Below, piece by piece: positions 8,364 to 22,149 of a stretch of 64,000 nt of DNA (positions within the stretch are counted from its first letter, which is position 1; every line of letters starts with the position of its first letter). The stretch comes from a virus. Made by a program: the position numbers and the translations under genes. The stretch covers positions 27,621-91,620 of IMG/VR virus record IMGVR_UViG_3300047554_000303; one strand, written 5' to 3'. A model generated the notes under the pieces. It saw only the letters and a list, made by a program, of their open reading frames with translations. It made no database searches and was not told where the DNA came from.

Positions 8364-8927
8364 CTACACTACGTTATGCGTGACACTTCGCAGGTAGTTG
8401 AAGCAAACTAAGTGCCTGGCGCTGTCCCAACCTGCGTCGTGAGGCTTGTAGTCAGTCAGGTTCATCTTGGCGTAATCAAGCGCCATCGACTTCCAAGTCT
8501 CAAATGACTTGTTGTTTTTACCGTGTAATAGCCATAACATGCCATTTAGGTCTGCCATGCGCCTAGAAAACAGTGAATAGGTCTTCGGTAGGGTCGCCTT
8601 AACAAACGGCATGTCAAAACCAATGATGTTAAACCCTACTGGGATGGTCTTGGCCCTCTTTTTCGGGTTAGCGCCGCGTTCGATTAGCCACTCGTACAGT
8701 ATCTCGTCCACCTCATCGGGGTGCAAGGCTCCCTTAAGAGCCTCCTGGGGGATTTTGTGGACTTGGGCGGCCTCTTCTGACCACTGCATCTCACCGACAG
8801 GGCGAATTAGGTAGTCAATCGTCTCAATACCGTCGGGGCCTTCTACGGATAGCCCAATCTGGATGAGCTTGCCCCCAGTCTGGAGGTCAGTGGAGCTCAT
8901 CTCGCCGTCAATACCTACGAATAACAC
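8364..8927 (-). CDS. DEDDh 3'-5' exonuclease (DnaQ/oligoribonuclease-like)
   Basis: GIDGE, GFN..FD and HDA..D motifs. Confidence 0.88.
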   Translation of the reverse strand: MLFVGIDGEMSSTDLQTGGKLIQIGLSVEGPDGIETIDYLIRPVGEMQWSEEAAQVHKIPQEALKGALHPDEVDEILYEWLIERGANPKKRAKTIPVGFNIIGFDMPFVKATLPKTYSLFSRRMADLNGMLWLLHGKNNKSFETWKSMALDYAKMNLTDYKPHDAGWDSARHLVCFNYLRSVTHNVV

Positions 8928-8963
8928 CCGACTAGGGTATCAGAATGATAGGGGCGATTTAGA

Positions 8964-9173
8964 TTAAGCCTGAGCTAGGTGTCCCCAGAGGGCAATAAAG
9001 CCTATCTCTGCTGCAGTTGGGTCGTCATACTCGGCAGATAGGTCGTCAATCAGCTCCAAGATACCCTCTTCGCTACCCAGCTGAACCCTCCACCATAGCT
9101 GAATCATGTGGTCGTGGAGCATGTGGGTGCCCTCTTTCTCAACGAATGAGGCGAATACTTGGTCAACTGTCAT
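8964..9173 (-). CDS. Hypothetical protein
   Basis: Leaderless TAAGCT-N6-ATG. Confidence 0.6.
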   Translation of the reverse strand: MTVDQVFASFVEKEGTHMLHDHMIQLWWRVQLGSEEGILELIDDLSAEYDDPTAAEIGFIALWGHLAQA

Positions 9174-9249
9174 GCGGATAGCTTACTACAGGGGCGAATC
9201 AGGCGCAACCTGCGAATTTCGAAGTGATTAGGGGGGTCAAACCAATGCT

Positions 9250-9671
9250 TTTCGTTGTTTTAGGCTACTGCCTCAACTGAAAACCCCTCAACCGTGTGTG
9301 AGACCTGGCGCTTACCTGACCGATTTTGCGCCTAACCTTGTCGCTCGTGATAGTTTCGGATTAGCACCGATTCAGTTCGCTCAGTTGGTGTCCCGTGTAA
9401 CGCCACCGCCCGCCACGCCTATGCGTGTCGGGTTGCGTGTGAATTGTTCGCAAACACTTGCGTGTGTGTTCTTACGGCACACGCCCACTAACCATGCCCT
9501 AATCGCTCTCATGCGTGTTAGGCATTGGGTTACGCCTACTCTACGGGGTATGGCGGTATGTGGGTGTGTGCTGTCCCGTATGCCTAGGGGGGCAACCCCC
9601 CTAAAACCCCCCTAGGTGTATGGGGCAGACAATCCCGTATGCCCACTAAACACACACAAAAGGAGACATTT
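9250..9671 (+). promoter_or_regulatory. Divergent control region and hairpin-rich leader of the early operon; possible genome end
   Basis: Strand switch; consecutive hairpins including a 22-bp stem at 9571-9628. Confidence 0.55.
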
Positions 9672-9989
9672 ATGTCCGCTCTACTATCCGCATCGGCTAT
9701 TGCTTCGGCACTATCCGAGTCACCTGAATACAAGGCACTTGTCCTAGCGTTTGAGGCTAAGGCAGCGAAGGCACTTACCGAGGAGTTTCAGGTGAAGTCC
9801 CTAGGTGTCAAGATGACCCTAGCCCGTATTGCTGTCACCTACCAGGTATACAAGGCAGCACCGAAGGCACTAGGCGAGTCAGCACGTGCCTACACCGAGT
9901 CCGTCTCACGTGAGTGCCTAGCCATCATCAAGGCTAACGGCTACAAGGCAGACTGGAACAGCATCGTAGCCCTAGCCCAGCACGCATAA
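9672..9989 (+). CDS. First early protein (hypothetical, helical)
   Basis: AAGGAG RBS, ATG at 9672. Confidence 0.8.
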   Translation: MSALLSASAIASALSESPEYKALVLAFEAKAAKALTEEFQVKSLGVKMTLARIAVTYQVYKAAPKALGESARAYTESVSRECLAIIKANGYKADWNSIVALAQHA

Positions 9990-10148
9990 GGCTACTGCCC
10001 CACACACAAGTGAGCCTAACCCCCTGTATGACCAGCTCATACGGGGGGTGGGCTTGCTGTTATCAGGTGTAAGAGCACTACGGGCACCCCCTAGTCCGTA
10101 GTGTTCTTAGGCTTGATAGCCCTACACACAGGAGAGAAAGGAAGAACT

Positions 10149-10355
10149 ATGTCCCAAATGTCCCTAACCGAGCAGATTGAGATGCTCACCCGTCACAGGG
10201 AAGAACTTCACCAGATGCTTGTGGGAGAGCATGACCTATCCCTAGAGGAAGTCAACAGGGCACTAGTGTCTATGAGAGCCCTTACTAGGGCAATACAGGT
10301 AAGAGAAGCCCGTATGCCCCTAGCAGCGTGGGAGAAAGAGCTACTAGGTATCTAG
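10149..10355 (+). CDS. Early hypothetical protein
   Basis: GAAAGGAA RBS. Confidence 0.75.
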   Translation: MSQMSLTEQIEMLTRHREELHQMLVGEHDLSLEEVNRALVSMRALTRAIQVREARMPLAAWEKELLGI

Positions 10356-10475
10356 TCTCTCTCTATGTAAGTAACACATAAGACCTCCCCCATAGCCAAA
10401 GAGCTAGGGGGGACAAGCCCCCCTAAGACCCCCCAGTGATAGGGGCGTTCTTAGGACAACCCGAAAGGATAAGCA

Positions 10476-10640
10476 ATGACAGTCACAGTCACCATAGTCA
10501 CAAGGTATGAGATAGACATACCTGAGCTAGATAACAACACCCGTAAGTACATCACCGATAACTATGAAGCAGCAAGCCTGCCTTACGAGTATCAAGATGC
10601 CGAGTATGTAGACGGCAGTATCACCTATGAGGAGAACTAA
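10476..10640 (+). CDS. Early hypothetical protein (54 aa, acidic)
   Basis: GAAAGGA RBS; MTVTVTIVTRYEIDIPE... Confidence 0.7.
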   Translation: MTVTVTIVTRYEIDIPELDNNTRKYITDNYEAASLPYEYQDAEYVDGSITYEEN

Positions 10641-10771
10641 TGACCGTAGATAAGAACGCCGAAGGTGCGTGGCGTGTAAGTGACATCATCGGTGGCTATC
10701 TAGTTACCAAGGTGTACTACGAGTACACCAAGCGTGAAGCAATCAAGCGATTCAAGGAGGAATACAAGTGA
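10640..10771 (+). CDS. Early hypothetical protein (43 aa)
   Basis: TAATG coupling; MTVDKNAEGAWRVSDIIGGYL... Confidence 0.7.
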   Translation: MTVDKNAEGAWRVSDIIGGYLVTKVYYEYTKREAIKRFKEEYK

Positions 10772-11055
10772 GAGTAAGAGGCGAGATTCAGTGTGATGCG
10801 TGTAGCACATACTGTGACCAAGACCCTATCGCAGTTATGGGAGCCTATTCCATACCTGAGAAGGTGGTAAGCGAGAAGGTAAAGGCAGAACTTGCGTGGT
10901 TCTGGCTATGTAGCGACTGTAAAGAAGACGTTACAGGTATTGAAGATTGGTTTACCCACGAGTATCTAACAAGTGTTCCATGCGATGAGTGTGGAGACCC
11001 TGGCATGTATGACGAAGACGCAGGTAAGAACCTGTGTGATGACTGCTGGGCATAA
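10768..11055 (+). CDS. Early double zinc-finger protein
   Basis: Four CxxC pairs. Confidence 0.7.
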   Translation: MRVRGEIQCDACSTYCDQDPIAVMGAYSIPEKVVSEKVKAELAWFWLCSDCKEDVTGIEDWFTHEYLTSVPCDECGDPGMYDEDAGKNLCDDCWA

Positions 11056-11068
11056 GAAAGGAAAACAA

Positions 11069-11284
11069 ATGAACAAGCTATACAAGCGTATTATGAACCG
11101 CCTAGCTGATGACCTTATCTCTAAGGCATACCTAGAAGGCTACAACCTAGGGCTAGCAAGAGGGGCGAACAGCGAGCGTAACCGCCTAGCTAACAAGCTA
11201 GAGAACCTAGAGATTGAGAAGTTCAACAACACAGGTGTAACCCTTGGGTATTACACCGCATTAGAGCTAGTCAAGGAGGACTAA
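11069..11284 (+). CDS. Early hypothetical protein
   Basis: GAAAGGAAA RBS, ATG at 11069. Confidence 0.75.
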   Translation: MNKLYKRIMNRLADDLISKAYLEGYNLGLARGANSERNRLANKLENLEIEKFNNTGVTLGYYTALELVKED

Positions 11285-11578
11285 GTGATACCAAAGAGCG
11301 TGTTCATTCACACTAAGCGTTGGCGTGACAAAGTAAATGGGCAGAGTTATTTCGCATCCCGTATTGAAGTAGGCACAGCTAACTACCTGTTCGTGCCGTT
11401 TCAGTATGGGTATGAGAGTGCTGACCTAGACGCAGCAGTCAAAGTATTACAGCAGGCAGGGTATGAGGTAGAGCGTAAGCACTTCAACACTAGCCAAGCA
11501 CCGTTTGACCACTACTACGCCAGTGAGTGGACAACCAAGAGAGAAACCAAGCGTTTCGGAGAGGACTTCAGCGGATGA
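11285..11578 (+). CDS. Early hypothetical protein
   Basis: AGGAGG RBS; WRDKVNGQSYF...PFQYGY. Confidence 0.75.
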   Translation: MIPKSVFIHTKRWRDKVNGQSYFASRIEVGTANYLFVPFQYGYESADLDAAVKVLQQAGYEVERKHFNTSQAPFDHYYASEWTTKRETKRFGEDFSG

Positions 11579-11667
11579 TTTTCTATAACGGGTTCAACCT
11601 ACTAGTAGACCTAGTGCTAGTAGCAATCACAGCAGTAATCGCATACAAGATGGGAGCAAGCAGATGA
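11575..11667 (+). CDS. Single-TM micropeptide (30 aa)
   Basis: ATGA coupling at both ends; hydrophobic core. Confidence 0.55.
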   Translation: MIFYNGFNLLVDLVLVAITAVIAYKMGASR

Positions 11668-11825
11668 GCACGAACGAATACCGTCTGACTACTGAGCAGG
11701 AGGAAGTATTACAGGATGTAATAGCCGAGAAGCTAGAGGAAGACTACGCCAAGCACAGTGTGCTACACCCTGTGTTTGAAGCAATCATTGGCAGATGGAA
11801 GCCAACGTATGAGGAGGATAACTAA
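11664..11825 (+). CDS. Early hypothetical protein (53 aa, acidic)
   Basis: Coupled to both neighbours. Confidence 0.65.
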   Translation: MSTNEYRLTTEQEEVLQDVIAEKLEEDYAKHSVLHPVFEAIIGRWKPTYEEDN

Positions 11826-12031
11826 TGGGTAGAGAAGTTCACTTTGTTATCGCAGTAGATGTAGATAACAACACCGTGTCCATAGATGATGACACTTACG
11901 CAGCTAAGTTTGATTACTCCCAAGGTTATTACGACACCGACAAAGAGCAATGGTTTGAAGATGAAGACCGCATCTTGTATGACTTAGCACTAGGCATACT
12001 CAACAACAAAGCACAACTAGAAAGGGAATAA
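11825..12031 (+). CDS. Early acidic hypothetical protein
   Basis: ORF track; GGAGG RBS. Confidence 0.7.
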   Translation: MGREVHFVIAVDVDNNTVSIDDDTYAAKFDYSQGYYDTDKEQWFEDEDRILYDLALGILNNKAQLERE

Positions 12032-12034
12032 CAA

Positions 12035-12238
12035 GTGGCATACGGACCAAGAGTTCTAGAGGAACTCACTAGGCAGTACACATACCTACACGACAAGACC
12101 TTTAGCAAAGGTGTGAACCTTTGGTATGGGGAAGCAGGCAGTGACTTCAAGGTAGCAGAGATGATACTTGAGGGTAACAACCTAAGTGTTGTAGAGCAGT
12201 ACTTGATTGACAACTATGGAGAGGGAGACGATGACTAG
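12035..12238 (+). CDS. Early hypothetical protein
   Basis: ORF track. Confidence 0.65.
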   Translation: MAYGPRVLEELTRQYTYLHDKTFSKGVNLWYGEAGSDFKVAEMILEGNNLSVVEQYLIDNYGEGDDD

Positions 12239-12554
12239 CATTACCGACAAGCTCAGTGAGCTTGATGAATACCTAGAAGAAGCAAAAGGTATCGCTTGGG
12301 ATAACTGCCACAAGATTTACATCATGATGGATAACCAAGAGGTAGAACAGATGCGTAAGTATGGGTATGACCCACTTATTACATCAGACGAGATGACACC
12401 AGCAGAGATGCTAGGCACAGTACTCAAGTGGTACAACGATTCATGTGGACTCAAGTTCATAGATATAACAAGCACTACGGATACAGGTACTGAGTTCTAT
12501 GCCCTAGTGCCGCAGTTCTTTGCTGATGAAGATGAGGAGGAAGACGATGAGTGA
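12231..12554 (+). CDS. Early acidic hypothetical protein
   Basis: GGAG RBS; IAWDNCHKIY motif; poly-D/E tail. Confidence 0.75.
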   Translation: MTSITDKLSELDEYLEEAKGIAWDNCHKIYIMMDNQEVEQMRKYGYDPLITSDEMTPAEMLGTVLKWYNDSCGLKFIDITSTTDTGTEFYALVPQFFADEDEEEDDE

Positions 12555-12690
12555 AGCAGTTTACAGCGTGTGGGTAGGTGGGGTAGAAGCTAACGATTAC
12601 TACCTGACTGAAGAGTTTGCTAAGCAGTTGGCAGACCTGTTCATACATGACGGCTACATAGATGTACTAGTAACTAAGGAAACCAAATGA
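12547..12690 (+). CDS. Early hypothetical protein (47 aa)
   Basis: MSEAVYSVWVGGVEANDYYL...; coupled. Confidence 0.65.
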   Translation: MSEAVYSVWVGGVEANDYYLTEEFAKQLADLFIHDGYIDVLVTKETK

Positions 12691-12920
12691 GTGAGCGTGT
12701 TACATACGTTGATTACCAATGGAAAGACTCAGATGTACCAGGTGACACCAGTGCGTTGGTAGTGATACTCAATGACTGTGGTAAGTATGAGCAGATGGTA
12801 GAAGACGAAGCTTATGATGCACGTGTCTGGTTCTACTTCCAAGATGAAGCAGAGTTTCAACGTGCCTTTGACCCAAGCTCAGATGAGTTTGAGTTCGTAC
12901 TAACAAATGAGAGGAAATAA
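12687..12920 (+). CDS. Early acidic hypothetical protein
   Basis: ORF track; AAGGA RBS. Confidence 0.7.
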   Translation: MSERVTYVDYQWKDSDVPGDTSALVVILNDCGKYEQMVEDEAYDARVWFYFQDEAEFQRAFDPSSDEFEFVLTNERK

Positions 12921-12922
12921 CA

Positions 12923-13450
12923 ATGGGAACAAGAGGGCTGACAGTAGTCACCTATAACAATGAAGTACGTGTAGCACAGTATGGACAGTGGGACCACTAC
13001 CCTGCTGGACAAGGTGTTACAGCTCTAGAGTTCTTGCGTAACCCTGAGAACGTAGAGCAACTACGCAAGAACATGGACAAGTGCTACTGGATTCCACAAG
13101 ACAGACACGAAGCTCTTATTGGTGAGTTCTCTAGCTCAGACAAGTCGGGGTGGATGACCTTTGAAGAGGGCAAAGCATTTGGGGAAGCATACCCAAGCCT
13201 TACTCGTGACACTGGTGCAGAGATTCTGTATGTAATTGCAGAAGCAACTGAGCCTGTGCCACTAGTCAACGAGTATGAGTTCAGTAAAGATGAGCTGATG
13301 TGTGAGGGCATCTACTCAGTAGACCTTGACCGCAACACGTTCATCAGTGAGTACGCCCCGTATCCAACAAAGGTGTATGACCTAGACAACCTGCCTACAA
13401 GGGAAGACTACCTTGCAGCGTTCAAAGAAGAGGAAGAAGTAAATGCCTAA
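12923..13450 (+). CDS. Early hypothetical protein (MGTRG...QYGQWDHYP type)
   Basis: ORF track. Confidence 0.75.
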   Translation: MGTRGLTVVTYNNEVRVAQYGQWDHYPAGQGVTALEFLRNPENVEQLRKNMDKCYWIPQDRHEALIGEFSSSDKSGWMTFEEGKAFGEAYPSLTRDTGAEILYVIAEATEPVPLVNEYEFSKDELMCEGIYSVDLDRNTFISEYAPYPTKVYDLDNLPTREDYLAAFKEEEEVNA

Positions 13451-14018
13451 CTGGTGTGAGAATGAGGTAGAGATTACCTTTGAGAGTAAAGCAGAGTATG
13501 ACAAGTTCATTACACAAGCTGGGGTAGATGAAAGCACTAGCCCTTACCTTGAGTATGACAACGAGAAGAATGGCTATGGGTTCTTCGACAGGTTCTTGCC
13601 TACCCCACCTGAGATGCTAGAAGGTGAGGGCTGGTGGAGCTGGCGCATCAGTAACTGGGGCACCAAGTGGAACCCTAACTTCAACAAGTTTGAGACGGAT
13701 GATGATGCCCTAACGATAAGCATGGACATGTCTACGGCATGGGCACCACCCATTGAGTTCTTCACTACGTTCACTGAGCTCTTCTCTAGTGCAATCGTAA
13801 AGCTTGCGTACCTAGAAGAAGGCATGGGCTTCTGTGGTAAAGCAGAGTTCTATCAAGGGTCAGTTGAAGACAACTACCTCAACGAGATACCTACCTCCAT
13901 GTACGTAGCAGCAGGTGCCACACTCAATGCTGATGGAGAGATTGACTGGGATGAAGACCAGAACTATAACCTGTGGGAAGTTATCAACGACTCAGAACGA
14001 TTCGACGAGTTCGTGTAA
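13443..14018 (+). CDS. DUF1281/YubB ferredoxin-like domain protein
   Basis: MPNWCEN...W..WRISNWGTKW...TAWAPP...Y.EEGMGFCG. Confidence 0.8.
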   Translation: MPNWCENEVEITFESKAEYDKFITQAGVDESTSPYLEYDNEKNGYGFFDRFLPTPPEMLEGEGWWSWRISNWGTKWNPNFNKFETDDDALTISMDMSTAWAPPIEFFTTFTELFSSAIVKLAYLEEGMGFCGKAEFYQGSVEDNYLNEIPTSMYVAAGATLNADGEIDWDEDQNYNLWEVINDSERFDEFV

Positions 14019-14069
14019 CAGACACCAACAAGCGTGACATGAGAGTGGAGAGGCTCTCCTGATTACGAA

Positions 14070-14105
14070 ACAAAGCCTAGGTCAGTGTGTGTACCTAGGC
14101 TTTGT
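14070..14105 (+). terminator. Long hairpin: terminator or RNase III-type processing site
   Basis: ACAAAGCCTAGGT/ACCTAGGCTTTGT 13-bp perfect stem. Confidence 0.55.
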
Positions 14106-14146
14106 CGTAGGGTAATGACCCTACCTGATGAGTAAAGGAAAGCAGT

Positions 14147-14482
14147 ATGGAAACAGTAACCATTACCCGTACGATTGATGCCGTTGAGTTCTGGTCAAGC
14201 ATCATGGGTAGCACAGAGTTCATGGGTGAACAATGGCTCAAGGTCAAGTACCACGGTGAGTCTGACTGGGATAAGCCAGGCAGCGTAACTATCACCGCTG
14301 ACAATGGTGAGGAAGAAATATCCAAGACACTAACCATTGAAGACCTAGTACAGGCATACGAAGCTGTAATAGCTAAGCCGTACTACCACTGTGGTGGCAC
14401 AGTTGACATCGACAACATGGATGAGTGTGCGAGTGACATCGTGCTACAGCAGGCGGTGTTCGGAGATGTTATCTATGGGTAA
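14147..14482 (+). CDS. Early acidic hypothetical protein
   Basis: AAAGGAAA RBS; ends D..LQ.AVFGDVIYG. Confidence 0.75.
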   Translation: METVTITRTIDAVEFWSSIMGSTEFMGEQWLKVKYHGESDWDKPGSVTITADNGEEEISKTLTIEDLVQAYEAVIAKPYYHCGGTVDIDNMDECASDIVLQQAVFGDVIYG

Positions 14483-14666
14483 GCGATGGCTCAAGCTAGT
14501 GCCGAGTCGCTGGGCAGGGCGTGGCCAACACAAACAAAACAACGATGAACACGTAACGATTAGGGTAAGCACCTTGCACCTAATCATTCGTGAGACATAC
14601 AACATGGGCAGAGAGGATGAACGTAATGAGTCGCAAAGTAACAGTGACCTACACAGTCACGTATGA
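14475..14666 (+). CDS. Hypothetical protein
   Basis: GGAG RBS; overlaps neighbours. Confidence 0.5.
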   Translation: MGKRWLKLVPSRWAGRGQHKQNNDEHVTIRVSTLHLIIRETYNMGREDERNESQSNSDLHSHV

Positions 14667-14829
14667 CCTACGCAAAGGTGATGTAGGTAGAGATTACGTA
14701 GAGTGGCTAGACGGCTACAGAGACAATAAGGGACTTCGTAGTTGGTTTGTAATAGACCGTTTCGTTGGTCACGACAACCTACAACTGTTTGACCCTAAGG
14801 CTAAGCTCCGCATAACAGAGGAGAAGTAA
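14626..14829 (+). CDS. Hypothetical protein
   Basis: ORF track with start trimmed. Confidence 0.6.
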   Translation: MSRKVTVTYTVTYDLRKGDVGRDYVEWLDGYRDNKGLRSWFVIDRFVGHDNLQLFDPKAKLRITEEK

Positions 14830-15086
14830 TGACACATGCACACACAGAGACACGAACAACCGAAAGCTCACGTGGCTGGTCACTGCACTGTACTGAGTGT
14901 AACGAGTACCTAGGCTTTGAAGATAAACCACCTGTGTACTCAGTGTTCGTAAATGGTTGGGAAGGTTCAATGAGGGTGTGGTATGCACCTGAGTTTGAGA
15001 CACCAGAAGAAGCACAGACTTGGCTAGACAACCAAGGCGAATGGGACGAAGGCCGTCCTTACGTTGAAGAGGTATACAACTACTAG
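14829..15086 (+). CDS. Hypothetical protein with CxxC
   Basis: TAATG coupling. Confidence 0.65.
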   Translation: MTHAHTETRTTESSRGWSLHCTECNEYLGFEDKPPVYSVFVNGWEGSMRVWYAPEFETPEEAQTWLDNQGEWDEGRPYVEEVYNY

Positions 15087-15098
15087 AAAGGAAACACC

Positions 15099-15248
15099 AT
15101 GTACCACGCAGATGATGACATGAATGACCTTTACGAGTTCATGCGAGAAGAAGCTACGGCTCGTGAAGAGGATGCCAATTACGAAAGTGACTCATCCGAT
15201 ACGGAAGAACTAGCAACCGCCAAAAGCATGCACCGAGAGGACTACTAA
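15099..15248 (+). CDS. Small acidic protein (49 aa)
   Basis: GAAAGGAAACA RBS. Confidence 0.65.
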   Translation: MYHADDDMNDLYEFMREEATAREEDANYESDSSDTEELATAKSMHREDY

Positions 15249-15424
15249 TGAACACCTATGAAGTAACCGTAGTAGAGAAGATTAAACACACTGTTGAGGT
15301 AGAAGCACTCAACGAAGACGAAGCCTTGACCAAAGGCTATGACATTGTCATGAACGGCCCTGAGGATGAGTATGACTCAGAGTCCCAAGGCAGTGCCGAA
15401 TCATACGTACTAAGAATCAACTAA
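15248..15424 (+). CDS. Small acidic protein (DpnD/PcfM-like pattern)
   Basis: YEVTVVE....VEVEA.NEDEA pattern. Confidence 0.6.
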   Translation: MNTYEVTVVEKIKHTVEVEALNEDEALTKGYDIVMNGPEDEYDSESQGSAESYVLRIN

Positions 15425-15445
15425 CACGAAAGAAAAGGAAACCAC

Positions 15446-16846
15446 ATGTACGCAACACTAATCCTTAGCCAGTCCCCGTACGGTGTACGCCAGACTGCTA
15501 TCATCCCTACCACCAACAACGGTGTACGTATCTTGCACAGATGCGGCTTCGGTCGTGGCCTAGCTGCAACTTGGAGCGAAGCTTACCCAGATGCAGAAGC
15601 ACTACAAGAGTATGTACTCAATGCACCTGTGTCACTAGCTATGACTCCAGCTCATGTACGTGACGCTGATGTCATGGCTCGTACTCCTAACAACGTACTG
15701 CAAGCACTAGGTAAGCGACTAGCCACAGCGTTCGTCCCTAGCAACTCCACTCTAGGTGAGCTATTAGACAATGTACTAGCCGCTTGTTCTACTAACCCTG
15801 CATCACTAGCCAAGTATGCACACAAGCAGTCAGTGACTGTGACTGTCCCTTCAGTAGCACCTGCACCACACCCTGTGACAGTGAGCGTCCACTACCCACA
15901 GACTAATGAGGTAGTACAAGAGCAGCTCACTCCGACTGCACCTGTAACCGAAGAGGTAATCAACATGGCTACACCTGCACCACAGCCAGCCACAGTTACT
16001 GTGACTAACCGCTCGCTCAACACCTTGAACATCCCAGACGTTGAGCCGTACTTTGAGCGTTCGTTCGAAGACATCTCTGAGTCACGTATCTATGACTCTG
16101 CACGTAAGAACCAGTGGAATGTACTACTGACTGGTGATGCTGGTACAGGCAAGACATCATCTGCCCGTAACTATGCAGCACAGCGCAAGCTCCCATTCGT
16201 AGTCATCGAATGTACTCAACAGATTGACAACAGCATTACTCAGGGTCGCTTCGTACCTGCTGAGGACGGCACGTCTATCAAGTGGGTGTACTCACAGCTA
16301 GCCACTGCTATCCAGCAGCCTTCGGTCATCTTGCTCAATGAGTTGACCCGTATGTCTCCCAAGTCATCCTCACTGTTCCTTCGCCTCATCTGGGAGCGTG
16401 AGCTATTGATTGAGCCATTCAACGAGGTTATCAAGGTACACCCAGAGTGCTTGTTCATTGCTGATGCCAACGTAGGTAACAACTACAGCGGTACCATGCG
16501 ACAGGACGGCGCACTGCTTGACCGCTTTGCTATCAAGCTTCCGTTCAGTTACGACGCTGAGCTTGAGGCCAAGTTCATCCCGTACCCTGCACTGCTAGGC
16601 TTTGCCACTGGTATCCGTACTGCGACCGAGCTAGGTCAGGAAGACTTCACTGTCCCACTGTCCACTCGTTTGCTACAGACCTTCGTAGCACAAGTCAAGG
16701 AGTTCAGTTGGAGCTTCGCTGTCCAACGTCTGCTGTCCAACTTCCCTACCGACACTGGTGAGCGTGACGCTATCAAGCTTCGTATCGATGCTGACGCACC
16801 ACGTATTGCTCGTGAGTTCGGTGTTGACTTAGCACCTACTGCCTAA
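15446..16846 (+). CDS. MoxR/CbbQ/CobS-like AAA+ ATPase
   Basis: Walker A GDAGTGKT, Walker B ILLNE, ALLDRF. Confidence 0.88.
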   Translation: MYATLILSQSPYGVRQTAIIPTTNNGVRILHRCGFGRGLAATWSEAYPDAEALQEYVLNAPVSLAMTPAHVRDADVMARTPNNVLQALGKRLATAFVPSNSTLGELLDNVLAACSTNPASLAKYAHKQSVTVTVPSVAPAPHPVTVSVHYPQTNEVVQEQLTPTAPVTEEVINMATPAPQPATVTVTNRSLNTLNIPDVEPYFERSFEDISESRIYDSARKNQWNVLLTGDAGTGKTSSARNYAAQRKLPFVVIECTQQIDNSITQGRFVPAEDGTSIKWVYSQLATAIQQPSVILLNELTRMSPKSSSLFLRLIWERELLIEPFNEVIKVHPECLFIADANVGNNYSGTMRQDGALLDRFAIKLPFSYDAELEAKFIPYPALLGFATGIRTATELGQEDFTVPLSTRLLQTFVAQVKEFSWSFAVQRLLSNFPTDTGERDAIKLRIDADAPRIAREFGVDLAPTA

Positions 16847-16872
16847 TCTAGAATAAACCTGAGGAGGTTATT

Positions 16873-18648
16873 GTGGCTATCACCGTATACAACAATCAAG
16901 TAGACAAAGAATCTGTGCAGCGCATCTACGCTGCCAAGTTGCAGCAGAGCTTTGGCAAGTTTGCTCGTGCAATTGCTTTGCGAGACATCTCTGTGTCTAT
17001 CGTCCCGCAACAGAGAGGGCTTCAGCCAGCACCTGCATGGAGCACAGACAACGGTCTGGTAGTTACTTACGACCAGAGCAAAGGGAGTGTGCTTGCTGCA
17101 AACAACCTGCTGCGACTCAAGGGCTTGGTCATTCATGAGCTATCTCACCTATTGTTTACGCCACGTAGTTTGACTGGTCTAGTCAAGTGGGTGCACGCAC
17201 AGAACTACGGCTCCTCGTTCAACATTCTTGAGGACAATCGTATTGAGAACATGATGGTAGCCAAGATGTCTGGTATTGCACCATGGCTAGTACACACTGT
17301 TGCAACAGAGTTACTGGCTGCCAGCAACCCAGACTTGCTTCCGCTTGTATGGGGTCGCAAGTATCTTGACTCCAACATCCGACTGCTTGCTCGTGATGAG
17401 TGGGCTAAGAAGTATGGTGCTGAGAATGCTGCTGAGGTGTGCAAGTATCTGGACAGATACGTACAGCTCAACCTTGGTGACACTAAGAACTACACAGAAG
17501 CACAGGAGATTATTGCTGCGTTCCACACACTGTGTCAGTTGGCTGCTCCCACCTCTTCCCTTCATGGTCAGTCTTCATCTGCTCCTGAGAGCAATGGTGA
17601 GAAGCCTGAGTCACGTAGTGAGCAAGGCAAGCTACTCAAGCAGGTCGACATGTCTGAGCCTGAAGAAGATGAGTCAACTGCTGTGCACACATCCTCTGAC
17701 TCGGAAGACACAGAGGACACTCCATCGTTGACTAAGCAACTACAGCGTGTTGCTGACGAGGCTTATACTGAGGTGTTAGAGGATGTAAAGAACACCATTG
17801 CTAACGTACGTAATGATGACGGTGTTGGCGAGGTACATGACCACGACAATGACAGGGGCAAAGGTAGGAGTGTGGTCAACATGCCGAGCTGGTCTTGGAG
17901 AAAGATTTACCCTTCTGCCGTTAGCATTCAAGCATCACGTAGGTTTGCTAATGAGCTTATCAATCTCAAGGCTGAGCATGACCCAGGTTGGTTGCGCAAG
18001 ACCAGCCAAGGCAAGGTCAATGTTCGACAGTTCATGCAGGGTGCTGACTTTGACGAGATGTTTGACCAGTGGTCTGAGGGCAACCAAGATGTCAGTGACA
18101 TTGAGTGTGTGGTTCTTGTAGACAGCTCTGGTTCAATGCACGACATGCTGACCCCTGCTTACGAAGCTATGTGGACAATCAAGCGTGCACTAGATAGCAT
18201 CAACGCTAGTACAACTGTTATACAGTTTGCTGACATGGGTGGTTGGCTATACAAAGCTGACGAGCGTGCACAGACATACATCAAGACTGCGCCTAGTGGT
18301 GTCGGCGGCTCTACCTACCCGTTCTCTAGTCTCAAAGCTGCCAAAGAAATCCTGACTAACTCTCCACGTGCAATCAAGCTGCTGCTTGTTGTTACTGACG
18401 GTGCATGGGGTAGCCCACAAGCATGCGACCAGTTGATTACTGGTATGCGTACATCGGGAGTACTGACAAGCCTCGTGTTCTTGACTGAACCTTCTGAGAA
18501 CATTCCTTACTACCTCCGCTCAGTTGATGGCGGCATAGCTGTTGACGGACACAAGTGTGAGTTCGTACAACACCTTACCAACCCACTAGAGATTGTTGAC
18601 GTAGCCAAAGCGATTACCAAGCGTGCACAACGTGCGCTTCTTGTATAG
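16873..18648 (+). CDS. CobT-like HExxH plus VWA domain protein
   Basis: IHELSH, NILEDNRIE, MIDAS DSSGS...TDG. Confidence 0.85.
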   Translation: MAITVYNNQVDKESVQRIYAAKLQQSFGKFARAIALRDISVSIVPQQRGLQPAPAWSTDNGLVVTYDQSKGSVLAANNLLRLKGLVIHELSHLLFTPRSLTGLVKWVHAQNYGSSFNILEDNRIENMMVAKMSGIAPWLVHTVATELLAASNPDLLPLVWGRKYLDSNIRLLARDEWAKKYGAENAAEVCKYLDRYVQLNLGDTKNYTEAQEIIAAFHTLCQLAAPTSSLHGQSSSAPESNGEKPESRSEQGKLLKQVDMSEPEEDESTAVHTSSDSEDTEDTPSLTKQLQRVADEAYTEVLEDVKNTIANVRNDDGVGEVHDHDNDRGKGRSVVNMPSWSWRKIYPSAVSIQASRRFANELINLKAEHDPGWLRKTSQGKVNVRQFMQGADFDEMFDQWSEGNQDVSDIECVVLVDSSGSMHDMLTPAYEAMWTIKRALDSINASTTVIQFADMGGWLYKADERAQTYIKTAPSGVGGSTYPFSSLKAAKEILTNSPRAIKLLLVVTDGAWGSPQACDQLITGMRTSGVLTSLVFLTEPSENIPYYLRSVDGGIAVDGHKCEFVQHLTNPLEIVDVAKAITKRAQRALLV

Positions 18649-18660
18649 AGAGGAATACAA

Positions 18661-18804
18661 ATGAATACAGAGCCAGAATACTATTGCATCTTCTGTGAAG
18701 ACTATGTAATGAACATCGACATGGCTATGAAGTGCTTACAATGTGGTGAGTACAAAGGGCTGGTCAAGGTCGGCCCAACACAAACAAATGGAGAGGATAA
18801 CTAA
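18661..18804 (+). CDS. Small zinc-finger protein
   Basis: CIFC...CLQCGEYKG. Confidence 0.65.
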   Translation: MNTEPEYYCIFCEDYVMNIDMAMKCLQCGEYKGLVKVGPTQTNGEDN

Positions 18805-18998
18805 TGAACCGCTATGAAGTACACGTACACGTTGTCTACAAGATAGACGCCGCATCGCTAGAGGATGCCTACCGCAAGATTAACGAGGGTGCCGAGTTCC
18901 CTGTCTTGCCTTACGACGATAATACTTATTGTGACGCTGTTGTTATTACAGACATTAAACAGTTGAGTGAAGCAGAACTATCAGAGGAGACAGTGTGA
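18804..18998 (+). CDS. Hypothetical protein
   Basis: Coupled ORF. Confidence 0.65.
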   Translation: MNRYEVHVHVVYKIDAASLEDAYRKINEGAEFPVLPYDDNTYCDAVVITDIKQLSEAELSEETV

Positions 18999-19288
18999 GC
19001 CTGTATTACGGAGTCAATGGAGAACCAATCACCTTAGAACAATGGGGTGAGATTATGGAGGATGTTGAGCAGAAAGTAGTTAAGCAAGACAGAGTAAATG
19101 GATTACTGGTGTCTACAGTTTGGCTTGGCATGAACCACAACTTCGGAGAAGGAGAGCCTCTTATTTACGAGACCATGGTTTTCCCAGAAGGTAGTTGGGA
19201 AGAGATGTACATGGAAAGGTACACCACCCGTGAGCAAGCAATCGCTGGGCATGAGGTAGCGTTGGAATGGACAAAGGAGCAGAAGTGA
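18995..19288 (+). CDS. Hypothetical protein
   Basis: VSTVWLG.NH...YETMVF...RY.T...A.AGH; ends KEQK. Confidence 0.75.
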   Translation: MSLYYGVNGEPITLEQWGEIMEDVEQKVVKQDRVNGLLVSTVWLGMNHNFGEGEPLIYETMVFPEGSWEEMYMERYTTREQAIAGHEVALEWTKEQK

Positions 19289-19395
19289 GTGAGGCAACTC
19301 AAATGTCAGACGGTCAAGACTGGACTGAACCAATCAAGTTGACCGCCGCTGAGTGGGAGCAGTTGAACGAAGCGTTAGAGGGAGAGCAGAAGTGA
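19285..19395 (+). CDS. 36-aa cassette ORF ending GEQK
   Basis: GTGA coupling at both ends; GGAGAGCAGAAGTGA tail. Confidence 0.55.
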   Translation: MSEATQMSDGQDWTEPIKLTAAEWEQLNEALEGEQK

Positions 19396-19610
19396 GTGTA
19401 GAGAGCATTATCAACAACCCACCAAAGGTATTTACAGAGCCTTGCGAGGCTTGCGGAGTAAGTGAGTTTCAGCTAGGCGTCAGCCACGCAGAAGAACGCA
19501 TTATCAAGTTGCTAGAAAAAGAAGCAAAAGGCTTCAACTTCATTAGAAATTTTTATGCGGAAGCCATAACTAGCGAACTAATTGGCAAAATCAAAGGAGA
19601 GCAGAAGTGA
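19392..19610 (+). CDS. Cassette ORF with ERIIKLLE...IKGEQK module
   Basis: Module shared with 5764-6069. Confidence 0.7.
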   Translation: MSVESIINNPPKVFTEPCEACGVSEFQLGVSHAEERIIKLLEKEAKGFNFIRNFYAEAITSELIGKIKGEQK

Positions 19611-19792
19611 GAGAGACATGGATGGGGTCAGGGGTCAACAGTACAATAAAGCTGTTTCACGTTACCTGCCCAAATTGTGATACCGAATGGGCAGATGATT
19701 TTTATGTAGACGATTGGGGCAATGTAGAAGAAGAGATTAAATGCTACAAATGCAATGAGCCGTTTACGTTTACACATTACAAAGGAGAGTAA
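19607..19792 (+). CDS. Small zinc-ribbon protein
   Basis: CPNC...CYKC. Confidence 0.7.
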   Translation: MRETWMGSGVNSTIKLFHVTCPNCDTEWADDFYVDDWGNVEEEIKCYKCNEPFTFTHYKGE

Positions 19793-19794
19793 GA

Positions 19795-20109
19795 ATGGCA
19801 AGAACGAAAAAACCAGTTGACCGTCAAGCAGTCACTATCATCCAGGTGAAAGACCCTCTGTGTGCTCAGACTGACCCTGAGATGTTCTTCCCGTCCGACA
19901 GCAAGGGAGACGGGTACACCACCACCAAGTACGCAAAGGACATTTGCGCCCAGTGCGATTACACAGTGCAGTGCCTTATTACAGCAATAATGAATAAAGA
20001 AGAGTATGGCATTTGGGGAGGCTCTAGCCCAAGAGACCGCCGAGCTATCAAGACTAGAACTCAGGCAATAACCTTCGTGAAGAAGTTAAAAGACGAACGC
20101 AAGAAGTAG
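19795..20109 (+). CDS. whiB: WhiB-family transcription factor
   Basis: CAQTDPEMFF...C..C.....C...EEYGIWGG. Confidence 0.93.
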   Translation: MARTKKPVDRQAVTIIQVKDPLCAQTDPEMFFPSDSKGDGYTTTKYAKDICAQCDYTVQCLITAIMNKEEYGIWGGSSPRDRRAIKTRTQAITFVKKLKDERKK

Positions 20110-20121
20110 CCCAACACAAAC

Positions 20122-20165
20122 AAAATGCGGGTCCATATGCTTCCATGCTATGGGCCCGCATTGTT
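20122..20165. terminator. Bidirectional terminator between convergent blocks
   Basis: AATGCGGGTCCATA/TATGGGCCCGCATT stem with flanking A and T runs. Confidence 0.75.
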
Positions 20166-20173
20166 ATCTGCTA

Positions 20174-21661
20174 TTAGTCTTCTATAGAAGTCTTTATAAT
20201 TCGGGTGGTTTGCTCCTCATTTAGAGGCTGTTCCATCTCCTTTAAGACGCTTGCTCGGTCACCGAAAATAGCGCTCAAAACACCTCCGCTAGTCTCTCTA
20301 CTAGCAGTGATTTGGACGAACTCTTTATTACTCTCCAAGTCCTTCATGTTTGCTATGAGCTTGAACAATCTGTCCACCTCTTGCGACACGTTCGGGTCAG
20401 CGTAGCCACCGTTCAATTCCTCTGCATACCGCATAAACATTACCCTCTGGCCTTGCATCTCTATTACAGATGTCAATAGGTCTTTGAGCTGTTCCTTAGT
20501 CTTTACCTCTACTGGCAAGTTAAATGCGCACATGTTATCTGGCTTAAATGCAGGGCAATTTGCGGCCACAAAACAGGTATTACACTGCCTTAACGACGCT
20601 TGTTGCGAACGCACTACGGGCACATCTCTGAGGGTATCGTCAGCGTCTACAATCGTCTTAGATTCGAACCCAAAAACAGGTAGATTAACCTTTTCGGAGG
20701 GGTCTCTAGGTTCTACTTTTTTCCGCACTTCCATGTCCCTGTTATTAGAAGGGGTAGTGTCGAAATCCATCAAACCCGTATATAGGGGTCCCTCGTTGTT
20801 ATCTGCTAACATCTCCTCTAATGAGGGCAGTCCACCTTTTATAACACGTAGGTCTGGCTTATTCTTATCCATTTTTGCCTCTAACTGTAGGTACGACCAG
20901 ACTGCAACTTTGGTCGCCTCTGTCGTATCGTCGTTTACGAACTTATCAAAATCTAACCCTGCTTGTGCTACTACGTTCTTATACCGTAGACGAGCTTGGT
21001 CTTTCATTTTCTTTGGGTATCGAACTAGCTTCGTGCCGTCCCATACAATCGTCTCTCCTCGTCGCATGGGCGATGTCCACGCCAGTGTGCTGGCAGTATC
21101 AAATGGAATCTGGCGTAGGTTATCTGGCTTGGCTGTGGCTAGGGCATGAAACTTTACGTCATTCTGCGCCTTGGCATTACGAACTAATCCTGACAACGAC
21201 GTTACCTTTTCTATGGCATCGCCAGGTATCGCTACGTTTGCGTACTCCTGCGCCCAGTCTCTCAATAACAACGTGTTATACGTTTGGTGCCATACAACCC
21301 ACATCTTTGGGTCATTCTGGAATGCGGCTCTGTTCTGGATTATCTTGGGCAGTCCCCAGACTTGGGAATCGAACTCTACCCAACCCTCTATTCTGTCGTA
21401 GTTTAGGGCTACGAACTCCTCGTAGTTTGCGGCATACTCCTCCAGCTCACGCTGTGATAATCCTGCTTTGTCTGCTTGGGTTGCTCCGCTGTCTACCCAC
21501 ACTTTCATGTGGGGCAAAAAATGCTCACCGATTAAATACGCCTTGGTCTTTGGTAAACCTCGTTTACACAATCCCCAGTAATTCAACATCACGTTGGTAA
21601 CACCACTGCGCTCCAACATGGTGCGGTTACTTGGAATCTCTACGCCACCGAAAATAATCAA
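20174..21661 (-). CDS. tRNA-guanine-transglycosylase-like (TGT/DpdA-like) TIM barrel fused to a C-terminal Cys-cluster/helical domain
   Basis: VWVDSGA, FHALA and FDTASTLAW resemble the DSG, H.(L/F)G and DS.SW motifs of phage TGT-like proteins; C-terminal CNTC..NCP..MC. Confidence 0.5.
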   Translation of the reverse strand: MIIFGGVEIPSNRTMLERSGVTNVMLNYWGLCKRGLPKTKAYLIGEHFLPHMKVWVDSGATQADKAGLSQRELEEYAANYEEFVALNYDRIEGWVEFDSQVWGLPKIIQNRAAFQNDPKMWVVWHQTYNTLLLRDWAQEYANVAIPGDAIEKVTSLSGLVRNAKAQNDVKFHALATAKPDNLRQIPFDTASTLAWTSPMRRGETIVWDGTKLVRYPKKMKDQARLRYKNVVAQAGLDFDKFVNDDTTEATKVAVWSYLQLEAKMDKNKPDLRVIKGGLPSLEEMLADNNEGPLYTGLMDFDTTPSNNRDMEVRKKVEPRDPSEKVNLPVFGFESKTIVDADDTLRDVPVVRSQQASLRQCNTCFVAANCPAFKPDNMCAFNLPVEVKTKEQLKDLLTSVIEMQGQRVMFMRYAEELNGGYADPNVSQEVDRLFKLIANMKDLESNKEFVQITASRETSGGVLSAIFGDRASVLKEMEQPLNEEQTTRIIKTSIED

Positions 21662-22149
21662 TCTCCGAACCTCACTGTCTCGGTTCGAATCAACCTCTTA
21701 TCCTGTGTCATCAACGCATTTTGTTTAGAAATGGCTTCTTCAATCTCTGTCCAGGCTCTTACCTTCTTGGGGGCGTCTGGCCTGAACTCTGGCCTTAAAT
21801 ACGTTGGTACACCAAACATCATGCTTGGAATACCCTGCTCAAATGCAAATGCCCATAATGAGGGGTTTGCGGTGATTAATAAATCAATTGGCCCACGGGC
21901 TCTTGCGTGACGAATCTGCCGCTTCTTCAGCTCTTCGCCTTCTAATCCGACTGAACTGTCGATGATGTTATCGAAATCTACTACCTTGTTCTCATCCAAC
22001 CACTGCTTTACACGTGCTGGTGACAACTCTGTAATGAATGTAATTTGGTTATACGCACTCAGTGCGCCCGTGACTAACGCACCCGCGGCAATCGGTTCAT
22101 CATTTCTGAACCCGCGTAGTACTCCGTCTAAATCAACAACAATGTGCAT
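21658..22149 (-). CDS. HAD-superfamily phosphatase-like protein
   Basis: N-terminal VVDLDGVL motif I. Confidence 0.7.
   Translation of the reverse strand: MHIVVDLDGVLRGFRNDEPIAAGALVTGALSAYNQITFITELSPARVKQWLDENKVVDFDNIIDSSVGLEGEELKKRQIRHARARGPIDLLITANPSLWAFAFEQGIPSMMFGVPTYLRPEFRPDAPKKVRAWTEIEEAISKQNALMTQDKRLIRTETVRFGD

What the first reader, a model, noticed from the sequence alone, without database searches (positions are those of the whole stretch)
9446..12817. Restriction-site desert marking the probable first-injected DNA end
Seen, by line-by-line reading: no GATC, CCGG, GGCC, GCGC, CGCG, TCGA, TGCA, AATT or TTAA in ~3.3 kb, where about 13 of each would be expected at even composition. 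CTAG, AGCT, GTAC, CATG and ACGT remain. The missing sites return gradually: TGCA ~12818, AATT ~13234, TCGA ~13585, GCGC ~13643, GGCC ~14523, TTAA ~15282. Known: T7 and T5 expose an early segment first and express anti-restriction functions from it. Inference: staged DNA entry beginning near 9250-9450, with an anti-restriction factor encoded among these first ORFs.
Basis: partly seen in the sequence, partly recalled or inferred. Interest (0 to 1): 0.72.

Follow-up and report, generated by a model that had tools for sequence, protein, structure and literature searches.

The report
Restriction-site desert in phage early block
A 3.4-kb stretch at the start of the only rightward-transcribed gene block of an uncultured 91.5-kb actinobacterial phage has been purged of seven extra four-base restriction-type palindromes. 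Relatives purge the same block, which fits a first-entering "leading region" like that of phage T5 but does not prove one.

Summary
Seven palindromes (AATT, TTAA, TGCA, TCGA, GCGC, GGCC, CGCG) have 1492 sites in the genome, about one per 61 bp. They leave one 3376-bp gap at 9442-12818; the next longest gap is 468 bp. GATC and CCGG are not local: they are absent from the whole 91.5-kb genome.

Shuffling synonymous codons in the 14 desert genes predicts about 53 sites; one is seen. Codon choice is bent accordingly (Leu CTA 58% against 26% elsewhere), which also explains the CTAG excess.

The desert opens the only + strand block (9672-20109), made of tiny, mostly acidic orphan genes plus a conserved AAA/vWA pair and WhiB. 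All seven uncultured relatives examined purge extra palindromes in the same block, with different word sets. One lacks TGCA, GTAC, ACGT and GGCC over about 12.5 kb. Words purged from the rest of a genome stay purged in the block.

In two cultured relatives (Streptomyces phages BRock and LuckySocke, TerL 53-54% identical) short terminal repeats lie in the homologous divergent junction.

Best reading: a T5/T7-style leading region, exposed to restriction before early anti-restriction functions act. The terminus, staged entry and the anti-restriction gene are inferred, not shown. The principle is known; this is a new member of it.

The parts
9446..12817 (.). Core desert: no AATT, TTAA, TGCA, TCGA, GCGC, GGCC or CGCG, in addition to the genome-wide absence of GATC and CCGG
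9173..9672 (.). Divergent intergenic region between the first gene of the long - strand array and the first + strand gene. By analogy with BRock and LuckySocke this is the probable site of the physical ends and a short terminal repeat. The last local sites lie at 9203-9442.
   Evidence: PMC7453282
9672..12920 (+). Fourteen small ORFs of the desert (30-107 aa), most of them acidic with pI about 4.1-4.4. Nearly all are orphans even within the phage family. Codon usage is distorted (Leu CTA 58%, Asn AAT 8%, Ile ATA 31%).
12818..20109 (+). Rest of the + strand block with graded, partial depletion. Over the whole block AATT, TTAA, GCGC and GGCC are about 3-6 times rarer than outside it and CGCG is absent; in this part TGCA is at its normal density and TCGA nearly so.
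15446..16846 (+). AAA_5 (MoxR/CobS-like) ATPase, conserved in the + block of all relatives examined
16873..18648 (+). vWA (CobT-like) partner protein, conserved with the ATPase
19795..20109 (+). WhiB-family transcription factor, the last gene of the + block; points to an actinobacterial host
   Evidence: Pfam E 1.4e-18
20125..20163 (.). Hairpin at the convergent end of the + block (likely a bidirectional terminator). In relatives the purge ends within a few hundred bp of this point.
8675..22084 (.). 13.4-kb gap in CGCG spanning the whole + block

Best explanation
The + strand block (9672-20109), and most strictly its first 3.4 kb, is the leading, early-expressed end of a linear genome whose physical ends lie in the divergent junction at 9173-9672.

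Proposed sequence of events (inferred):
1. This DNA is in the cell, and must stay intact, before the phage's early proteins have neutralised host restriction.
2. Any site for a host type II enzyme in it is therefore lethal, and selection removes such sites by synonymous codon choice.
3. Early products then disarm a subset of restriction systems, or allow or protect entry of the rest of the DNA. Those sites are tolerated elsewhere in the genome.
4. Sites of systems that cannot be neutralised (here GATC and CCGG) are purged from the whole genome.

Shown: the local, palindrome-specific, codon-level purge; its recurrence and nesting across the family; and the position of the ends in cultured relatives.

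Inferred: the position of the ends in this genome, the polarity and staging of DNA entry, early expression of the block, and the existence of an anti-restriction function.
For: 1. The purge is extreme and specific to palindromes.
2. It acts on DNA words, not proteins. Synonymous shuffles give 52.9 sites against 1 observed, and codon usage is bent towards rare but safe codons.
3. It starts at the junction and runs only into the + block. The - strand side shows normal site content.
4. All seven relatives fetched (TerL 79.7-91.5% identical over the aligned 492 residues) have palindromes as the most depleted words in the same block, with different sets. In G003, TGCA is 0 in the block against 454 outside, GTAC 0/331, ACGT 0/214 and GGCC 0/78. 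In G005, ACGT is 1/258. In G004, AGCT is 8/556.
5. The sets are nested. Words purged from the rest of a genome are also absent in the block, with a single CCGG as the exception.
6. In 19 loci that span the junction, the + side lacks more palindromes than the - side in 13 and fewer in 2 (p about 0.01).
7. BRock and LuckySocke share the gene order and have short terminal repeats in the homologous junction (PMC7453282).
8. Precedents exist. EcoRI sites are cut only in T5 first-step-transfer DNA (bioRxiv 10.1101/866236). Type I motifs matter only in the leading region of Murciavirus (PMC12455610).
9. The block consists of hypervariable small acidic orphan genes, as is typical of leading and anti-defence regions.
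Against: - No read-end or coverage data exist for this genome, and the assembly is circular-type.
- The cultured relatives with known ends show no such desert.
- If the terminal repeat sits next to the long array, as in BRock and LuckySocke, it would include the six sites at 9203-9442.
- In this genome the complete purge covers only the first third of the block.
- No known anti-restriction homologue was found.
- Staged entry has not been described for this phage group.
- Purge boundaries that match the transcription block fit some rival explanations equally well.
Confidence: 0.55

Rival explanations
1. The whole genome enters at once, but only the early operon must stay uncut. A cut inside it stops early expression and kills the infection. 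Cuts elsewhere are re-ligated or repaired by recombination once early proteins (nuclease inhibitors, anti-restriction, ligase or recombinase functions) are made. Extra selection therefore falls on the early transcription unit without any staged injection.
For: In relatives the purge matches the transcription block from the junction to the convergent terminator, not a fixed distance from an end. Relatives encode a host-nuclease inhibitor, a RecA-like recombinase, a Cas4 exonuclease and RNA ligases. This explanation needs no unusual DNA-delivery mechanism in a contractile-tailed phage.
Against: Repair of several double-strand cuts in a single infecting genome is inefficient. Known cases of sub-genomic site avoidance (T5, T7-like phages) are tied to staged entry (bioRxiv 10.1101/866236; PMC12455610). 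It does not explain why the strictest purge in this genome lies nearest the junction.
Confidence: 0.2
2. Module history. The + block is a hypervariable, horizontally exchanged cassette drawn from a gene pool shaped in phages or hosts with a wider restriction repertoire. The desert would then be an imported composition signature, not selection acting at this position.
For: Desert ORFs are orphans or patchily shared. Nucleotide similarity to relatives is almost nil within 9.4-12.8 kb. Metagenomic contigs break preferentially in this region: 38 of 80 contig ends lie within 4 kb upstream of the AAA gene against 13 of 80 downstream, and the ends are not at homologous positions. Some family members purge seven palindromes genome-wide and could act as donors (G001).
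Against: The avoidance sets are nested in all eight genomes: the block always also lacks what the rest of the genome lacks, and never carries words the rest has purged, apart from one CCGG. Random import predicts non-nested sets. In G003, G005 and G002 the purge fills the block up to its boundaries, including the conserved AAA/vWA genes.
Confidence: 0.13
3. Uneven DNA modification. Most of the genome is protected by a phage-made base modification, while the + block is poorly modified and has to avoid sites instead. A TGT/DpdA-like gene at 20174-21661 could belong to such a pathway.
For: There is a PHROG hit to queuine tRNA-ribosyltransferase (phrog_887, E 1.4e-59), in an operon next to the block.
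Against: No mechanism is known that excludes a 10-kb block from modification. AATT and TTAA contain no G and would not be protected by a guanine modification, yet they are tolerated outside the block. Pfam gives no hit for the protein.
Confidence: 0.05

Closest known systems
Phage T5 first-step-transfer (FST) region and its restriction insensitivity
   Same: One end segment of about 8-12% of the genome carries small, fast-evolving pre-early genes and is kept free of restriction sites that are tolerated elsewhere. Protection of the remaining DNA is attributed to early functions (bioRxiv 10.1101/866236; PMC10644984).
   Different: T5 is a siphovirus of E. coli with roughly 10-kb terminal repeats and a mapped injection-stop signal. 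Here the phage is a contractile-tailed actinophage, relatives have only 221-344-bp terminal repeats, no stop signal or A1/A2 homologues were identified, and 7-9 four-base words are involved, not a single six-base site.
Leading-region dependence of type I restriction in T7-like Murciavirus (PMC12455610), and T7 Ocr
   Same: Only motifs in the first-injected, inward-transcribed, hypervariable region decide sensitivity. Early anti-restriction proteins are thought to protect the rest.
   Different: Those are podoviruses, the motifs are type I, and the result is experimentally proven. Here the words are type II-like palindromes and the evidence is purely comparative.
Streptomyces myoviruses BRock (Borockvirus), LuckySocke, Alone3, GiJojo
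   Same: TerL is 53-54% identical. They share the same two-arm gene order, with a short block of small genes diverging from the long array, and short direct terminal repeats in the junction (PMC7453282).
   Different: They show no palindrome desert in the block and no genome-wide GATC/CCGG loss. Their genomes are larger (112-116 kb) with many tRNAs.
Leading regions of conjugative plasmids
   Same: [quoted passage not shown]
   Different: Plasmid DNA enters single-stranded by conjugation and is not a phage.

Membership tests
Leading-region (first-injected) restriction-site avoidance, T5/T7 type | Statistically significant depletion of restriction-type words confined to one genome segment | tested here: met
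Leading-region (first-injected) restriction-site avoidance, T5/T7 type | The segment abuts a fixed physical genome end (not headful or permuted packaging) | tested here: inconclusive
   The ends lie in the homologous junction in BRock (PMC7453282) and LuckySocke.
Leading-region (first-injected) restriction-site avoidance, T5/T7 type | The segment enters the cell first, ahead of the rest (staged or slow polar entry) | not testable with these tools
   Needs infection experiments.
Leading-region (first-injected) restriction-site avoidance, T5/T7 type | The segment is transcribed inward from the end, expressed early, and encodes an anti-restriction function | tested here: inconclusive
   The inward orientation and small acidic orphan ORFs are met. 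Timing is unknown. No Ocr/ArdA-type match was found, and the one fold attempted had pLDDT 61.
T5-like two-step transfer specifically | Long terminal repeat containing the FST genes, an injection-stop signal and A1/A2 proteins | tested here: not met
   Relatives have 221-344-bp repeats only (PMC7453282). Pfam and PHROG searches of the block proteins gave no A1/A2-like or other functional match. No repeat-rich stop region was seen; only a hairpin at 20125-20163.
BRock-like Streptomyces myoviruses | Shared terminase, structural and replication gene order, and two-arm architecture | tested here: met
   TerL is 53-54% identical, so the relationship is distant and not the same genus.

The most novel reading that the evidence does not exclude
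A large, uncultured family of actinobacterial myoviruses (at least 600 related contigs in IMG/VR) delivers its DNA in two steps. The whole 11-14-kb divergent block acts as a first-transfer segment that ends at the convergent terminator. Early products of that block, possibly including the conserved AAA/vWA pair, neutralise many unrelated type II restriction enzymes or gate entry of the rest of the genome. The two-tier, nested purge pattern would then report, from sequence alone, which host restriction specificities each phage can and cannot disarm.
Probability: 0.3. Interest if true: 0.8.

Novelty: new member of a known kind. Interest (0 to 1): 0.6.

Why it matters
Restriction pressure focused on the first-entering DNA has been shown experimentally for only a few model phages. 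This case suggests it also operates in an abundant uncultured group of contractile-tailed actinophages. There it is unusually strong: up to eight four-base palindromes removed from one block, at the price of rare codons.

If the reading holds, an inside-versus-outside word scan could do three things from metagenomic sequence alone:
- locate genome ends and leading regions;
- flag blocks rich in anti-defence genes;
- separate restriction systems a phage can neutralise (sites purged only in the block) from those it cannot (sites purged everywhere).

The block's orphan acidic proteins and the conserved AAA/vWA pair become candidates for new anti-restriction or DNA-entry functions.

Tried and rejected
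- **Nucleotide searches of the phage collection:** no match.
- **The exact 127-bp end overlap of the contig:** read as an assembler overlap, not a true terminal repeat.
- **Contig ends as a proxy for physical ends:** ends cluster upstream of the AAA gene. However, they are not at homologous positions, some lie in coding sequence, and one full-length "linear" contig simply overlaps itself inside the block. This is better explained by hypervariability, so it was not used as support.
- **G004 contig ends:** they sit at the junction with an imperfect repeat of about 600 bp; ambiguous.
- **Sigma-70-type promoter scan:** fewer hits than in shuffles; uninformative for an actinobacterial host.
- **GTTCTTASG motif:** occurs three times in the first three intergenic regions of the block; left unexplained.
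- **ArdA search of the genome:** negative.
- **Pfam and PHROG on the desert ORFs:** no function.
- **ESM Atlas for the 107-aa acidic ORF:** no usable hit.
- **AlphaFold2 single-sequence model of that ORF:** pLDDT 61, too poor for a fold search.
- **Chance, composition, amino-acid content and coding-strand bias:** rejected as explanations.
Full report
**What the window is**

The window is bases 27621-91620 of a single 91,620-bp virus contig whose first and last 127 bp are identical. That is an assembler-type overlap, so the true length is about 91,493 bp and the record start is arbitrary. The phage has a contractile tail: tail sheath, baseplate, portal, major head protein and large terminase are all recognisable.

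Nearly every gene is on the - strand. The only exception is one + strand block at 9672-20109. It diverges from the long array across a 500-bp intergenic region (9173-9672) and converges with it at a hairpin at 20125-20163. The last gene of the block is a WhiB-family factor (Pfam E 1.4e-18), which points to an actinobacterial host.

**Checking the observation**

Two of the nine words, GATC and CCGG, are absent from the whole genome, as are ATGCAT, CTCGAG, GAATTC, GGCGCC and GCGCGC. They therefore belong to a genome-wide tier of avoidance, not to the local feature.

The local feature is the loss of AATT, TTAA, TGCA, TCGA, GCGC, GGCC and CGCG.
- Together these have 1492 sites in the genome, about one per 61 bp.
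- Their longest gap is 3376 bp (9442-12818); the next longest is 468 bp.
- Of the 12 four-mers missing from the region, 9 are palindromes. The other three are frequent as reverse complements, which is plain coding-strand bias.
- In an unbiased comparison of about 132 reverse-complement word classes inside and outside the region, the six most depleted are all palindromes with zero counts.

**The purge is at the DNA level**

I shuffled synonymous codons among the 14 desert genes, keeping the proteins and the local codon usage. This gives 52.9 sites of the seven words on average (minimum 35 in 1000 shuffles) against 1 observed, and that one is the TGCA at 12818. Codon usage is distorted in the direction that avoids the words.

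| Codon | Desert genes | Core - strand genes |
|---|---|---|
| Leu CTA | 58% | 26% |
| Asn AAT | 8% | 24% |
| Ile ATT | 31% | 61% |
| Ile ATA | 31% | 8% |
| Arg CGC | 7% | 18% |
| Arg CGA | 2% | 10% |

The shift to CTA explains the CTAG excess (38 observed against 28 in shuffles). The desert is therefore selection on DNA words, paid for with rare codons.

**Extent of the depletion**

- To the left, the last sites lie at 9203-9442 inside the intergenic region.
- The - strand side shows normal site content.
- To the right, the words return one by one. Over the block as a whole AATT, TTAA, GCGC and GGCC remain about 3-6 times rarer than outside it. CGCG is absent up to 22084. Beyond 12818, TGCA is at its normal density and TCGA nearly so.

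**Relatives with known ends**

The large terminase is 53-54% identical to those of Streptomyces phages BRock, LuckySocke, Alone3, GiJojo and pSt2308. BRock and LuckySocke share the whole architecture: a block of small genes of about 10-12 kb diverging from a long array that runs from small genes and tRNAs through terminase, head, tail, replication and lysis genes.

BRock has a 221-bp direct terminal repeat defined by double coverage with sharp margins (PMC7453282). The LuckySocke record repeats its first 344 bp at its end. In both, the physical ends fall in the divergent junction, and in BRock the block sits at the left end reading inward. This is an inference: reads could not be obtained.

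Neither cultured relative has a palindrome desert.

**The uncultured family**

IMG/VR holds at least 600 contigs with a terminase 78-98% identical. I fetched seven near-complete relatives (G001-G007, GC 41-52%). Each purges its own set of palindromes genome-wide. G001, for example, has no AATT, AGCT, ATAT, CGCG or GATC, and only 1 CCGG and 2 GGCC.

In every one, the most depleted words inside the + block relative to the rest of the genome are palindromes (counts).

| Genome | Word | Sites in block | Sites outside |
|---|---|---|---|
| G003 | TGCA | 0 | 454 |
| G003 | GTAC | 0 | 331 |
| G003 | ACGT | 0 | 214 |
| G003 | GGCC | 0 | 78 |
| G005 | ACGT | 1 | 258 |
| G005 | GGCC | 0 | 77 |
| G004 | AGCT | 8 | 556 |
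| G002 | AGCT | 8 | 304 |
| G002 | TTAA | 3 | 256 |
| G007 | TTAA | 9 | 323 |
| G001 | GTAC | 1 | 83 |

- In G003, G005 and G002 the gaps are 12.5-19 kb long. In G003 and G005 they start at the junction and in G002 within about 1.6 kb of the block start; most end within a few hundred bp of the convergent end of the block.
- Words purged from the rest of a genome are also absent in its block, with one CCGG as the only exception. The sets are therefore nested.
- Across 19 junction-spanning loci, a 3-kb window lacks 2.8 palindromes on the - side and 4.4-4.9 in the block. The block lacks more in 13 loci and fewer in 2 (Wilcoxon p about 0.01).

**Interpretation**

A cut anywhere kills a genome that is fully inside the cell. 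Avoidance confined to one block therefore implies that the block is exposed, or needed, before the rest is at risk.

The best fit is the known leading-region logic of T5 and of T7-like phages. In T5, EcoRI sites are cut only in first-step-transfer DNA (bioRxiv 10.1101/866236). In Murciavirus, motifs matter only in the first-injected region (PMC12455610). Here the block would be the first-entering, early-expressed segment. Systems its products can disarm would leave a footprint only in the block; systems they cannot disarm (GATC, CCGG) would leave one genome-wide.

The block's content fits this picture. It holds tiny, very acidic orphan proteins, and a conserved AAA_5/vWA pair and WhiB. No known anti-restriction protein was found.

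Because genes beyond the convergent hairpin face the other way, transcription from the block could not draw in the rest of the DNA. A T5-like second step is therefore more natural than a pure T7-like mechanism. This last point is speculation.

**Rivals**

1. The whole genome enters at once, but only the early operon has to stay uncut. This fits purge boundaries that follow the block.
2. The block is an imported, hypervariable cassette. This fits the orphan genes and the frequent assembly breaks there, but it is weakened by the nested word sets.
3. DNA modification is uneven, with a TGT-like gene next to the block. This has little support.

Chance, base composition and protein content are excluded.

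**Verdict**

The principle is already known, so this is a new member of a known kind. It is notable for its strength, for the two-tier nested pattern, and for occurring in an abundant uncultured group of actinobacterial myoviruses.

Noticed in passing
whole genome (window 1-64000 and L001/L002): GATC and CCGG are completely absent from the 91.5-kb genome. So are the six-base palindromes ATGCAT, CTCGAG, GAATTC, GGCGCC and GCGCGC. ATAT (observed/expected 0.14) and CGCG (0.20) are strongly depleted.
   Followed up: partly
G001 (IMGVR_UViG_3300032216_000646; loci L098-L102): This relative has no AATT, AGCT, ATAT, CGCG or GATC at all in 95.6 kb, and only 1 CCGG and 2 GGCC. That is one of the most extreme genome-wide palindrome purges I have seen.
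   Followed up: partly
G003 (IMGVR_UViG_3300032323_000939; loci L108-L112), about 81.6-94.3 kb in my orientation: A stretch of about 12.5 kb covering the + strand block has no TGCA, GTAC, ACGT or GGCC, although these have 78-454 sites elsewhere in the genome. The gaps end inside the last gene of the block.
   Followed up: yes
window 9587-9612 and 10409-10434: Two copies of a G6-loop-C6 hairpin followed by TAA(A/G)ACCCCCC lie in the first intergenic regions of the block; none is expected by chance. GTTCTTASG also occurs in each of the first three intergenic regions (9468, 10103, 10447). These may be early regulatory or processing signals.
   Followed up: no
window 15446-18648: An AAA_5 (MoxR/CobS-like) ATPase and a vWA (CobT-like) protein form a pair that is conserved in the + block of all relatives examined. 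The vWA protein also has homologues in Gordonia and Brevibacterium phages. Their function in phages is unknown.
   Followed up: partly
window 13443-14018: A 191-aa, very acidic protein (net charge -29) carries a DUF1281_C ferredoxin-like domain (Pfam E 2.5e-11). It is one of the few block proteins shared by several relatives.
   Followed up: no
window 20174-21661: A 495-aa protein matches the PHROG family for queuine tRNA-ribosyltransferase (E 1.4e-59) but has no Pfam hit. It may be a DpdA-like DNA-modification enzyme and lies at the far end of the long array.
   Followed up: no
loci L133-L210 (IMG/VR contigs carrying the AAA gene): Metagenomic contigs of this family end preferentially just upstream of the AAA gene: 38 of 80 within 4 kb upstream against 13 of 80 downstream. 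The ends are at non-homologous positions, which suggests an assembly-breaking hypervariable zone at the start of the block.
   Followed up: yes
BRock 1-12 kb and LuckySocke 103-114 kb (L007, L004): In the cultured Streptomyces relatives the homologous block is enriched about 2-4-fold in CGCG (and, in BRock, CCGG) relative to the rest of the genome. The block therefore has a distinct composition there too, but in the opposite direction.
   Followed up: no
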